Of a stretch of DNA of 64,000 nucleotides, positions 21,001 through 24,000 are shown piece after piece. The stretch lies in assembly GCF_011045215.1 (NCBI RefSeq), contig NZ_CP049201.1; one strand, given 5' to 3'. Source of the DNA: Escherichia coli. GTDB taxonomy: Bacteria; Pseudomonadota; Gammaproteobacteria; Enterobacterales; Enterobacteriaceae. Positions within the stretch are counted from its first letter, which is position 1; each line of letters begins with the position of its first letter. The position numbers are program-made.

Positions 21001-24000
21001 CACTTGTTACTGGCGCTGCTCAGTAACCCATCTGCCCGGGAGGCGCTGGAAGCGTGTTCTGTGGATTTGGTTGCGCTCCGTCAGGAACTGGAAGCCTTTA
21101 TTGAACAAACCACACCCGTTCTGCCTGCCAGTGAAGAGGAGCGCGACACACAGCCGACGCTGAGTTTTCAGCGTGTACTGCAACGTGCGGTCTTCCATGT
21201 CCAGTCCTCCGGTCGCAATGAGGTTACCGGTGCAAACGTTCTGGTCGCTATCTTTAGCGAACAGGAGTCGCAGGCGGCATATCTGTTGCGTAAACATGAA
21301 GTCAGCCGTCTCGATGTGGTGAACTTTATCTCTCATGGCACGCGTAAAGACGAGCCGGCACAGTCTTCTGATCCTGGCAGCCAGCCAAACAGCGAAGAAC
21401 AAGCTGGTGGGGAGGAACGTATGGAGAATTTCACGACGAACCTGAATCAGCTTGCGCGCGTGGGCGGAATCGACCCACTGATTGGTCGTGAGAAGGAGCT
21501 GGAGCGTGCTATTCAGGTTCTCTGCCGTCGCCGTAAAAACAACCCGCTGCTGGTGGGGGAATCTGGTGTCGGTAAAACCGCGATTGCAGAAGGTCTTGCC
21601 TGGCGAATTGTTCAGGGCGATGTGCCGGAAGTGATGGCTGACTGTACGATTTACTCTCTCGATATCGGTTCTCTGTTAGCGGGCACAAAATATCGCGGCG
21701 ACTTTGAAAAACGTTTTAAAGCGTTGCTCAAGCAGCTGGAGCAGGACACTAACAGCATCCTGTTTATTGATGAGATCCACACCATTATCGGTGCGGGTGC
21801 AGCGTCTGGTGGTCAGGTCGATGCGGCTAACCTAATCAAACCGTTGCTCTCCAGCGGTAAAATTCGCGTAATTGGTTCGACAACCTATCAGGAGTTCAGC
21901 AACATTTTCGAGAAAGACCGTGCTCTGGCGCGTCGCTTCCAGAAAATTGATATTACTGAACCGTCGATCGAAGAAACTGTTCAAATCATCAATGGCCTGA
22001 AACCGAAGTATGAAGCGCACCACGACGTGCGTTATACCGCAAAAGCGGTGCGTGCGGCGGTAGAGCTGGCGGTGAAATACATTAACGATCGTCATCTGCC
22101 GGATAAAGCGATTGATGTTATCGACGAAGCGGGCGCTCGCGCACGCCTGATGCCGGTAAGCAAACGCAAGAAAACCGTAAATGTGGCGGATATTGAGTCC
22201 GTGGTGGCCCGTATTGCACGCATTCCAGAGAAGAGTGTTTCTCAGAGTGACCGCGATACCCTGAAAAACCTCGGCGATCGCCTGAAAATGCTGGTCTTCG
22301 GTCAGGATAAAGCTATTGAGGCGCTGACTGAAGCCATTAAGATGGCGCGTGCAGGTTTAGGTCACGAACATAAACCGGTTGGTTCGTTCCTGTTTGCCGG
22401 CCCTACCGGGGTCGGGAAAACAGAGGTGACGGTACAGCTTTCGAAAGCTTTGGGCATTGAGCTTCTGCGCTTTGATATGTCCGAGTATATGGAACGCCAT
22501 ACCGTCAGCCGTCTGATTGGTGCGCCTCCGGGATACGTTGGTTTTGATCAGGGCGGTTTGCTGACTGATGCGGTCATCAAGCATCCACATGCGGTGCTGC
22601 TGCTGGACGAAATCGAGAAAGCGCACCCGGACGTGTTCAATATTCTGTTGCAGGTGATGGACAACGGTACGCTGACCGATAACAACGGACGCAAAGCGGA
22701 CTTCCGTAACGTGGTGCTGGTGATGACCACCAACGCCGGGGTACGTGAAACTGAGCGTAAATCCATTGGTCTTATCCACCAGGATAACAGCACCGATGCG
22801 ATGGAAGAGATCAAGAAGATCTTTACACCGGAATTCCGTAACCGTCTCGACAACATTATCTGGTTCGATCATCTGTCAACTGACGTGATCCATCAGGTGG
22901 TGGATAAATTCATCGTCGAGTTGCAGGTTCAGCTGGATCAGAAAGGTGTTTCTCTGGAAGTGAGCCAGGAAGCGCGTAACTGGCTGGCCGAGAAAGGTTA
23001 CGACCGGGCAATGGGCGCACGTCCGATGGCGCGTGTCATCCAGGACAACCTGAAAAAACCGCTTGCCAACGAACTGCTGTTTGGTTCGCTGGTGGACGGC
23101 GGTCAGGTCACCGTCGCGCTGGATAAAGAGAAAAATGAGCTGACTTACGGATTCCAGAGTGCACAAAAGCACAAGGAGGAAGCAGCGCATTAATCTGATT
23201 GTTAAGTAGGTTGGTGAAGTCCGTAATCTCGAAAGAGGTTACGGACTTTTTATTTATGGGGTGGAGGAGGTTCAGACCCTTTTTTTGATGATGATGGTTA
23301 GTTGTTGATAATTAGTCCTGCTGGAAGGTAAGGATAAAAAAGGGTGGCAGCAGGAGAATGAGATGGTTTTGCTTTATTAACAACGGGCTAAACGTGTAGT
23401 ATTTGAGTTCACTGCCGTACAGGCAGCTTAGAAAAATTGTCGGCGCATTTTCCCATTAGTTGCAAAGTTCACTGCCGTACAGGCAGCTTAGAAATTCACA
23501 GGTAACATACTCCACCCGCCCACCATGTTCACTGCCGTACAGGTAGATAAAATGCGAAAAAAAAGCTCGTACTTTCGTTCGAGCTCTTCTTTAAATATGG
23601 CGGTGAGGGGGGGATTGACTCGCTTCGCTCGCCCTGCGGGCAGCCCACTCACTGCGTTCGTGGTCTGTCCAACTGGCTGCGCCAGTTGTCGAACCCCGGT
23701 CGGGGCTTCTCACCCCCCCTGGAGTGCATTATGCGAAAAAAAAGCTCGCACTTTCGTACGAGCTCTTCTTTAAATATGGCGGTGAGGGGGACCGCCTGAA
23801 ATAAATCTGACTTAATCCAGGGGTGTTATATAATTTCATTATAAACAATGTATTACACTTTTTGTTGTCCGATATTATCTAATGTATTCTTAGTGAAGCG
23901 AGAGACTAATGGCATACTGGATGGCATACCAGAGTGACGGGAATTAGCGTATGGCAGTATTGACGGATACGAAAGCAAGACATATCAAACCTGATGACAA

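What the first reader, a model, noticed from the sequence alone, without database searches (positions are those of the whole stretch)
23551..23789. Tandem duplication of a terminator plus tRNA-Ser 3' end enclosing a 118-bp tRNA-like remnant
Two ~60-bp copies (two mismatches) each contain a terminator hairpin and the last ~14 nt of a minus-strand tRNA-Ser acceptor end. Copy A runs into a 118-bp segment that has tRNA-like pieces (GGTTCGA, acceptor-complementary runs) but no proper cloverleaf. Copy B abuts the integrase side. This looks like sequential integration events at the same tRNA attachment site, with the intact tRNA expected at the far island end outside the window.
Basis: seen in the sequence. 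Interest (0 to 1): 0.5.

Follow-up and report, generated by a model that had tools for sequence, protein, structure and literature searches.

The report
RtT repeat beside serW island junction
The repeat is real, but it is an ordinary, already catalogued RtT-type repeat that sits after the serW serine-tRNA gene in many E. coli, and one genomic island has since inserted beside it, so it is not a scar of repeated insertions.

Summary
Two 60-nt copies (2 mismatches, 179 nt apart) each carry a terminator hairpin and the last 14 nt of tRNA-Ser(GGA). No tRNA is called anywhere in the window. Island-free E. coli PS10-3 has clpA, CRISPR remnant, copy A, the same spacer, copy B, intact serW and infA. 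Its 179-nt unit is identical to the window's. 939 of 5426 complete E. coli genomes show this island-free arrangement.

The spacer is an RtT RNA element (Rfam RF00391, 46.3 bits against a threshold of 45). RefSeq annotates it as 'RtT sRNA'. It is the tRNA-Ser counterpart of the 178-bp tyrT repeats. K-12 has three such units after serX and none after serW.

Copy B is the left junction (attL) of a single integration by an island of the SRL-PAI/OI-43/48 kind. Its 14-bp core, TGGCGGTGAGGGGG (23777-23790), equals the published direct repeat and sits beside a P4-type integrase gene (23951-25153). In related strains the island carries its own terminator and restores serW at its far end. That end lies outside this window.

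Both features are already known, so interest is low.

The parts
20902..23193 (+). clpA, the chromosomal gene on the left flank (context)
   Evidence: A 763-aa ORF. The order matches macB-cspD-clpS-clpA-serW-infA in K-12 and the clpA annotation in matching genomes.
23406..23554 (+). Orphan type I-F CRISPR remnant: two perfect 28-nt repeats and one degenerate repeat, with 32-nt spacers. The last repeat overlaps the first 3 nt of copy A.
   Evidence: Repeat family D2. Rfam CRISPR-DR4 scores 50.1 bits twice and 22.1 bits once. K-12 has the same remnant with one unit fewer.
23552..23611 (-). Copy A: a terminator-like hairpin (stem and loop 23565-23584, flanked by A8 at 23557-23564 and a T-rich run at 23585-23592), then the 3' end of the RtT element (23598-23611).
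   Evidence: In this window it has two private substitutions in the stem relative to copy B. The two copies are identical to each other in TB354 and PS10-3.
23598..23733 (-). RtT-type RNA element, tRNA-Ser variant. Its 3' 19 nt (23598-23616) are identical to the 3' end of tRNA-Ser(GGA), including CCA. Its 5' G-run (23713-23719) pairs with the C-run (23607-23613).
   Evidence: Rfam RF00391 scores 46.3 bits (gathering score 45), E 2.5e-7, over the full model. RefSeq annotates 'RtT sRNA' at the same place in other E. coli. It aligns with the serX and tyrT units.
23731..23790 (-). Copy B: the original serW terminator (stem and loop 23744-23763) plus the displaced last 14 nt of serW.
   Evidence: It is identical to the single terminator next to serW in K-12. 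In PS10-3 it is followed directly by the serW body.
23777..23790 (.). attL core TGGCGGTGAGGGGG, the left direct repeat of the island. Chromosome and island diverge after 23790.
   Evidence: Compare the window with K-12 and PS10-3 and with attR in TB354. The 14 bp are identical to the published direct repeat of OI-43, OI-48 and SRL-PAI (PMC3064760).
23791..23950 (+). Left arm of the island, upstream of int, with a promoter-like site at 23807-23834.
   Evidence: The sequence is absent from island-free strains and conserved at both serW and serX insertions. The promoter scan gives a 10/12 match. Function was not tested.
23951..25153 (+). P4-type tyrosine recombinase (integrase) of the island, 400 aa.
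   Evidence: Pfam finds Arm-DNA-bind_3, Phage_int_M and Phage_integrase. NCBIfam PRK09692 matches at E 9e-55, below its curated cut-off. RefSeq annotates a tyrosine-type recombinase/integrase at the same place in matching genomes.

Best explanation
Two independent, known features lie on top of each other.

(1) Many E. coli carry one RtT-type repeat unit of 179 bp downstream of serW. The order is tRNA, intrinsic terminator, a ~120-nt RtT body ending in the same 19 nt as the tRNA (with CCA), then the terminator again. This is the tRNA-Ser version of the classic 178-bp tyrT repeats. The unit is therefore bracketed by a 65-bp direct repeat made of the terminator plus the tRNA 3' end. I infer that recombination between these repeats adds or removes units, which would explain 0 units at K-12 serW, 1 here and 3 at K-12 serX.

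(2) A genomic island with a P4-type integrase, of the SRL-PAI/OI-43/OI-48 kind, then integrated once by site-specific recombination in the last 14 bp of serW. That split the gene. The serW body went to the far end of the island. In relatives the island supplies a new 3' end and its own terminator there. The old 3' end, its terminator and the RtT unit stayed behind next to clpA.

Shown here: the anatomy, the presence of the unit in island-free strains, and the att core. Inferred: this strain's far end has an intact serW (it is outside the window), and the RtT unit, now more than 40 kb from the serW promoter, is no longer co-transcribed with the tRNA. The function of RtT RNA itself is not established.
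For: - Repeat anatomy.
- RtT identity: Rfam hit above the gathering score, RefSeq 'RtT sRNA' at the same site, and 92-93% identity to the three serX units of K-12 with homology to the tyrT units.
- Unit present without the island: PS10-3 and S1-NGR-02-A have clpA-RtT-serW-infA and no island. The PS10-3 unit is 179/179 identical to the window's. 939 of 5426 genomes contain the RtT-terminator-intact-serW-flank arrangement.
- Older than E. coli: units linked to serW also occur in Citrobacter spp. and in Escherichia sp. MOD1-EC7003.
- Single integration: in TB354 the attL region matches the window's apart from a few single-base differences. The island is 43 kb and ends with its own terminator, the 14-bp core and intact serW next to infA.
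- The same core is published for OI-43, OI-48 and SRL-PAI, where excision restores the tRNA gene (PMC3064760).
- The same attL occurs with no RtT unit at serX of O157:H7 TR01, so the two features are independent.
- Integrase domains.
Against: - The Rfam score is only 1.3 bits above the family threshold. The tRNA-Ser variant is a divergent subgroup, 42-49% identical to the tyrT units over the whole unit.
- The right end of this island is outside the window, and the island differs from TB354's beyond about 32 kb. An intact serW in this strain is therefore inferred, not seen.
- The simple terminator scan did not list the two hairpins. Their terminator role rests on the fold and on their position after a tRNA.
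- No expression data exist for the tRNA-Ser RtT unit.
Confidence: 0.9

Rival explanations
1. One reading: two successive integrations at the same tRNA-Ser site each left a partial tRNA 3' end, and the 119-nt spacer is what remains of the earlier element.
For: Integrations at tRNA genes do leave direct repeats of the tRNA 3' end, and copy B really is such a repeat. K-12 serW has only one copy.
Against: - Island-free strains carry both copies and an identical spacer.
- The repeat includes 46 nt of chromosomal terminator and spacer beyond the tRNA end, while the island's own att repeat is only 14 bp and its other end carries a different terminator.
- The spacer is an RtT element that follows tRNA-Ser and tRNA-Tyr genes across Enterobacterales, in tandem arrays without islands.
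Confidence: 0.03
2. The RtT unit hitch-hiked with the island. An earlier excision from a serX locus used the 3' end of an RtT unit as a pseudo-att site. The circle then carried RtT plus a terminator and delivered them to serW.
For: The RtT 3' end contains the full 14-bp core plus 5 more tRNA bases, so the event is conceivable in principle. 717 genomes have an RtT unit next to this attL.
Against: - Both terminators flanking the unit are the serW type (GCTCGCAC...), not the K-12 serX type (GCCCGTAC...).
- The identical unit sits at serW in island-free strains.
- None of 5426 genomes has the island's right end joined to an RtT body.
Confidence: 0.03
3. The spacer is a recently decayed tandem duplicate of serW, that is, a tRNA pseudogene.
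For: It carries both halves of the tRNA-Ser T-arm (GGGGTTCGA ... AATCCCCC) and the acceptor 3' strand with CCA.
Against: - Nothing resembles the D arm, anticodon arm or variable arm of the tRNA, and ARAGORN and the Rfam tRNA model make no call.
- The ~75 nt between the T-arm halves are homologous to the tyrT RtT body and conserved across genera, with compensatory changes in its hairpins. That points to a maintained RNA family, not recent decay.
Confidence: 0.04

Closest known systems
RtT RNA / rttR, the 178-bp repeats of the E. coli tyrT-tyrV operon (Rfam RF00391). The papers by Egan & Landy 1978, Rossi et al. 1981 and Bosl & Kersten 1991 are cited from my own knowledge. Bosl & Kersten is also cited in PMC3318445.
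   Same: - The unit length is about 179 nt, directly downstream of a tRNA on the same strand.
- The last 19 nt are identical to the cognate tRNA 3' end, including CCA.
- Both share the 5' module GGG..GG-TGAGAAGC..CGACC..GGTTCGA and a closing stem between the 5' G-rich run and the strand derived from the T-stem.
- Units repeat in tandem and copy number varies.
   Different: - The cognate tRNA is Ser(GGA), not Tyr.
- Each unit contains an intrinsic terminator hairpin with U8 between the tRNA (or preceding unit) and the RtT body. The tyrT units have none.
- It scores only 46 bits on the Rfam model, against 133-137 bits for the tyrT copies.
- In this window the tRNA body has been moved more than 40 kb away by the island.
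The three 181-bp repeat units downstream of serX in E. coli K-12
   Same: The architecture is the same and identity is 92-93%. RefSeq annotates them as RtT sRNA (rows H117 and H119).
   Different: They lie at a different locus (ycdU-serX-ghrA rather than clpA-serW-infA). The terminator stem and the spacer before it carry locus-specific substitutions. There are three units there and one here.
attL of the serW/serX islands OI-43, OI-48, SpLE1 (the tellurite-resistance and adherence island) and the Shigella SRL-PAI
   Same: The 14-bp direct repeat TGGCGGTGAGGGGG is identical, a P4-family integrase gene lies next to it, and the insertion is in the last 14 bp of serW. The first ~8.5 kb of the island match the TB354 ter/cah island at 91-99%.
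   Different: In this window the island carries no ter genes. From about 37 kb it has a two-partner-secretion, CdiB/CdiA-like locus and several insertion sequences. The right end was not seen.

Membership tests
RtT RNA (Rfam RF00391) | Match to the covariance model at or above the curated gathering score | tested here: met
   46.3 bits against a gathering score of 45, E 2.5e-7, model positions 1-130 of 130, at window 23598-23733 on the minus strand. The margin is narrow.
RtT RNA (Rfam RF00391) | Lies just downstream of a tRNA gene on the same strand, as a unit of about 180 nt that can repeat in tandem | tested here: met
   Met in the island-free allele: PS10-3 has serW, terminator, RtT, terminator. 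In the window the tRNA body is displaced by the island. Across species the first module starts 61-70 nt after tRNA-Tyr or tRNA-Ser, with further modules at ~175-183-nt steps.
RtT RNA (Rfam RF00391) | The 3' end repeats the last ~19 nt of the cognate tRNA, including CCA | tested here: met
   AATCCCCCCCTCACCGCCA at 23598-23616 (minus strand) equals the serW/serX 3' end.
RtT RNA (Rfam RF00391) | Conserved fold: a closing stem between the 5' G-rich run and the 3' strand derived from the T-stem, plus internal hairpins | tested here: met
   The minimum-free-energy fold has the closing stem and three hairpins, with z = -2.1. RNAalifold on 77 modules keeps the closing stem and the second hairpin, with changes on both sides between the Tyr and Ser classes. 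These are mostly two classes, so few independent events.
RtT RNA (Rfam RF00391) | Released as a stable RNA when the tRNA precursor is processed | not testable with these tools
   No expression data are available. The terminator between tRNA and RtT body, and here the island, make co-transcription doubtful.
tRNA gene or recent tRNA pseudogene | A cloverleaf recognised by tRNA detectors | tested here: not met
   ARAGORN finds 0 genes in the window. There is no Rfam tRNA match in 22500-24500 at E up to 10.
Attachment site of a tRNA-integrating island with a P4-type integrase (SRL-PAI/OI-43/OI-48 kind) | The island boundary coincides with a short direct repeat equal to the tRNA 3' end | tested here: met
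   The left boundary is at 23777-23790. It equals the published 14-bp repeat. The right boundary is outside the window; it was seen in TB354 and O157:H7 TR01.
Attachment site of a tRNA-integrating island with a P4-type integrase (SRL-PAI/OI-43/OI-48 kind) | An adjacent tyrosine recombinase with an arm-binding domain and a catalytic domain | tested here: met
   PF13356, PF22022 and PF00589 in the 400-aa ORF at 23951-25153.
Attachment site of a tRNA-integrating island with a P4-type integrase (SRL-PAI/OI-43/OI-48 kind) | The site is empty, with an intact tRNA gene, in other strains | tested here: met
   K-12, PS10-3 and S1-NGR-02-A.
Tandem or sequential integration at one att site | Material between the two att copies derives from a mobile element and is absent from strains without an island | tested here: not met
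   The intervening sequence is identical in island-free strains and belongs to the RtT family.
Intrinsic (Rho-independent) terminator | A GC-containing hairpin directly followed by a U-run on the transcribed strand | tested here: inconclusive
   The fold gives 14-16-bp hairpins followed by U8 after both CCA ends. The consensus scan did not list them. Termination was not measured.

The most novel reading that the evidence does not exclude
RtT modules may be functional RNAs matched to their own tRNA, not inert repeats. In the species scan they follow only tRNAs with a long variable arm: Tyr, Ser(GGA) and Ser(GCT). Their 5' segment tracks the cognate tRNA's T-stem and acceptor 3' strand even for rare tRNA variants. 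The Ser(GCT) modules keep this complementarity although they lack a tRNA-like 3' end of their own. So the 5' segment could pair with the upstream tRNA's 3' strand in the precursor and influence its folding or processing. If that is true, integration of an island at serW, as here, is a natural uncoupling of the module from its tRNA, and island-bearing and island-free strains become a ready-made test pair.
Probability: 0.1. Interest if true: 0.5.

Novelty: already known. Interest (0 to 1): 0.15.

Why it matters
It matters little for new biology. It is useful for annotation. A tRNA 3' end duplicated together with its terminator next to an integrase can look like evidence of repeated integrations, but here it is a resident RtT repeat. 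Anyone mapping island boundaries at serW, serX or tyrT should expect extra copies of the tRNA 3' end that are not att scars.

One small side result follows. The RtT 3' end contains the complete 14-bp core plus five more tRNA bases and the same left flank. Yet it is joined to the tested island right end in none of 5426 complete genomes. This suggests the integrase also needs the tRNA-body side of attB.

Tried and rejected
- **Hidden or degenerate tRNA in the spacer.** Rejected: ARAGORN and the Rfam tRNA model find nothing.
- **Weak Rfam matches to MicC and Thr_leader over the two copies**. They are far below the gathering scores and only reflect the hairpin and U-run, so I ignored them.
- **K-12 as the island-free reference.** A synthetic 'RtT + terminator + intact serW + flank' query then found 939 island-free genomes with both copies.
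- **Use of the RtT 3' end as a secondary attachment site.** The junction 'island right end + core + RtT body' occurs in 0 of 5426 genomes. Only the TB354-type right end was tested.
- **Finding the far end of this particular island.** No complete E. coli genome covers 80% or more of window 39001-64000. The best partial match, strain 52F4, carries that module in an island next to a tRNA-Ile gene, so it says nothing about this strain's attR.
- **Literature.** Bosl & Kersten 1991 is not held in the library. Searches for 'rttR' and 'RtT RNA' gave only passing mentions. I found no paper in the library describing the tRNA-Ser units specifically. That is not proof that none exists.
- **The simple terminator scan** did not flag the hairpins.

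Full report
**1. The observation.** Window 23552-23611 (copy A) and 23731-23790 (copy B) are 60-nt direct repeats with 2 mismatches, 179 nt apart. A search with the 60-mer at up to 3 mismatches finds only these two sites, and 100 shuffles give none. Each copy has an A8 run, an 8-bp-core hairpin with a 4-nt loop, a T-rich run, AAATA and TGGCGGTGAGGGGG. That last string is the reverse complement of the final 14 nt, including CCA, of tRNA-Ser(GGA), as seen in K-12 serW and serX. Read on the minus strand, both copies fold as 14-16-bp hairpins followed by U8, directly after a CCA end. ARAGORN finds no tRNA anywhere in the 64-kb window. The spacer between the copies is 119 nt, not 118.

**2. The surroundings.** To the left lie clpS and clpA (clpA at 20902-23193), then a three-repeat orphan type I-F CRISPR remnant (23406-23554). 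This matches the K-12 order clpA, CRISPR remnant, serW, infA. To the right of copy B, homology with K-12 stops after 23790. A 400-aa tyrosine recombinase gene follows at 23951-25153, with arm-binding, central and catalytic domains. So copy B is the left junction of an inserted element.

**3. What the spacer is.** Rfam places an RtT RNA (RF00391) at 23598-23733 on the minus strand, matching the full model at 46.3 bits (gathering score 45), E 2.5e-7. RefSeq annotates 'RtT sRNA' at the same position in other E. coli. RtT is the repeated unit of the tyrT-tyrV operon. K-12 has four copies there scoring 133-137 bits, three of them 178 nt apart.

K-12 also has three tandem 181-bp units after serX. 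Each is a terminator followed by an RtT body that ends in the 19-nt tRNA-Ser 3' end. The window unit is 92-93% identical to these. The 5' module is G-run, TGAGAAGC, CCCC, GACC, GGGG, TTCGA. The 3' end is AAT, CCCCC, CCTCACC, G, CCA. In the tyrT units the corresponding segments are GGGAAGG, CTTC, AAGG and CCTTCCC, which match tRNA-Tyr.

**4. Is the duplication derived from integration?** No. Island-free strain PS10-3 has clpA, CRISPR remnant, copy A, RtT, copy B, intact serW and infA. There the repeat is 65 nt, perfect, with 179-nt spacing. Its 179-nt unit is identical to the window's. S1-NGR-02-A is the same. A synthetic query of RtT body, copy B, full serW and serW-specific flank is covered at 80% or more in one place in 939 of 5426 complete E. 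coli genomes. The best matches are 99.4-99.8% identical over the whole query. Units linked to serW also exist in Citrobacter spp. and in another Escherichia species, so the unit is older than E. coli. I infer that K-12 serW, with one terminator and no RtT, is a zero-unit allele, because the 65-bp flanking repeats invite loss or gain of units.

**5. The integration.** In strain TB354 the attL region matches the window's apart from a few single-base differences. A 43-kb island with ter genes and cah follows, and it ends ...GCGCATGTTAAACAATAACATGCGCTTGTAATC | TGGCGGTGAGGGGG | GGATTCGAACCCCC..., that is, intact serW next to infA. The island thus brings its own terminator and the last 14 nt of the tRNA. 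The direct repeat is only 14 bp and does not include the chromosomal terminator.

The same 14-bp repeat, the P4-family integrase and excision that restores serW or serX are published for OI-43, OI-48 and SRL-PAI (PMC3064760). The same attL also occurs with no RtT unit at serX of O157:H7 TR01, where serX is intact at the far end. It occurs next to an RtT unit in 717 genomes. The island and the RtT unit are therefore independent features.

None of 5426 genomes joins this island's right end to an RtT body. The RtT 3' end contains the whole core, yet this tested right end is never found joined to it. I infer that the integrase also needs the tRNA-body side of attB.

**6. Mechanism and status of each step.**
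- Shown: the anatomy of the unit, its presence in island-free strains, the 14-bp core, the integrase domains, and the restoration of serW at the far end in related islands.
- Inferred: this strain's island, which differs from TB354's beyond about 32 kb and extends past the window, ends the same way.
- Inferred: the RtT unit, now separated from the serW promoter by more than 40 kb and a terminator, is no longer made with the tRNA.
- Inferred: unit number changes by recombination between the 65-bp repeats.
- Not established: the function of RtT RNA. A role in the stringent response was proposed for the tyrT copy (cited in the bioRxiv paper).

**7. Wider look at the family.** Of 182 matches, 146 lie downstream of a same-strand tRNA. 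These are 76 Tyr(GTA), 63 Ser(GGA) and 7 Ser(GCT). The first module starts 61-70 nt after the tRNA, and later ones follow at ~175-183-nt steps.

The segment before TGAGAA is complementary to the cognate tRNA's T-stem and acceptor 3' strand, more so than to non-cognate tRNAs. RNAalifold on 77 modules keeps the closing stem and the second hairpin, with changes on both sides between the classes. Those counts are of sequences, not independent events. The Tyr units sit at the purU-narI locus and the Ser units mostly at the ghrA (serX) locus. This confirms that the window element belongs to a widespread family linked to tRNA genes.

**8. Verdict.** The interpretation of sequential integrations is wrong, while the reading of copy B as an island junction is right. 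Both components are already known and already annotated in public genomes. Interest is low, at 0.15.

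Noticed in passing
window 23406-23554: An orphan type I-F CRISPR remnant (two perfect repeats and one degenerate repeat, two 32-nt spacers) lies between clpA and the serW terminator, with no cas genes nearby. Its second spacer is the one K-12 has, and the first is extra relative to K-12.
   Followed up: partly
window 37027-49121: The island carries a two-partner-secretion locus that looks like a contact-dependent-inhibition system. It has a 579-aa ORF (ShlB/FhaC-type by the annotation of matching genomes), a 3106-aa filamentous-haemagglutinin-repeat protein, and a small 161-aa ORF just after it that could be the immunity gene.
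   Followed up: partly
window 39001-64000; L131: The right part of the window's island is a mosaic. No complete E. coli genome covers 80% or more of it. The best match (strain 52F4, 77%) carries this module in an island next to a tRNA-Ile gene, not serW. Only the first ~8.5 kb match the serW ter/cah island of TB354.
   Followed up: partly
window 53423-62236: A cluster of transposase genes (IS66, IS21 and IS4 families) lies inside the island.
   Followed up: no
window 23525-23773 (+): An 82-aa ORF runs antisense across copy A, the RtT element and copy B. Some RefSeq genomes annotate a 'hypothetical protein' under this match (rows H3-H6 and others). It is probably a spurious call over a structured-RNA repeat.
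   Followed up: no
L009, L052, L074, L120 (Pseudoalteromonas); L116 (Zetaproteobacteria metagenome-assembled genome): The RtT 5' module also follows tRNA-Ser(GCT) outside Enterobacterales, 65-70 nt after the tRNA and sometimes in tandem. Its leading segment is complementary to that tRNA's 3' strand, but it has no tRNA-like 3' end of its own. All three cognate tRNAs found (Tyr and two Ser) have a long variable arm.
   Followed up: partly
L049:7758-7780 (-), E. coli SCPM-O-B-8794, serX locus: The first module after the tRNA is a short form. The 5' module runs straight into TTCGAATCCCCCCCTCACCGCCA without the ~75-nt body, as if RtT and the tRNA T-arm had recombined at the shared GGGGTTCGA. A full unit follows 106 nt later.
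   Followed up: no
L129 1355-1735 and L004 1330-2084: The number of RtT units at serX varies within E. coli: three in K-12 and none in O157:H7 TR01, where the island abuts the single remaining terminator.
   Followed up: partly
window 23570 and 23578: Copy A has two substitutions in the hairpin stem that are absent from TB354 and PS10-3, where copies A and B are identical. They create an A-A mismatch in the stem.
   Followed up: no
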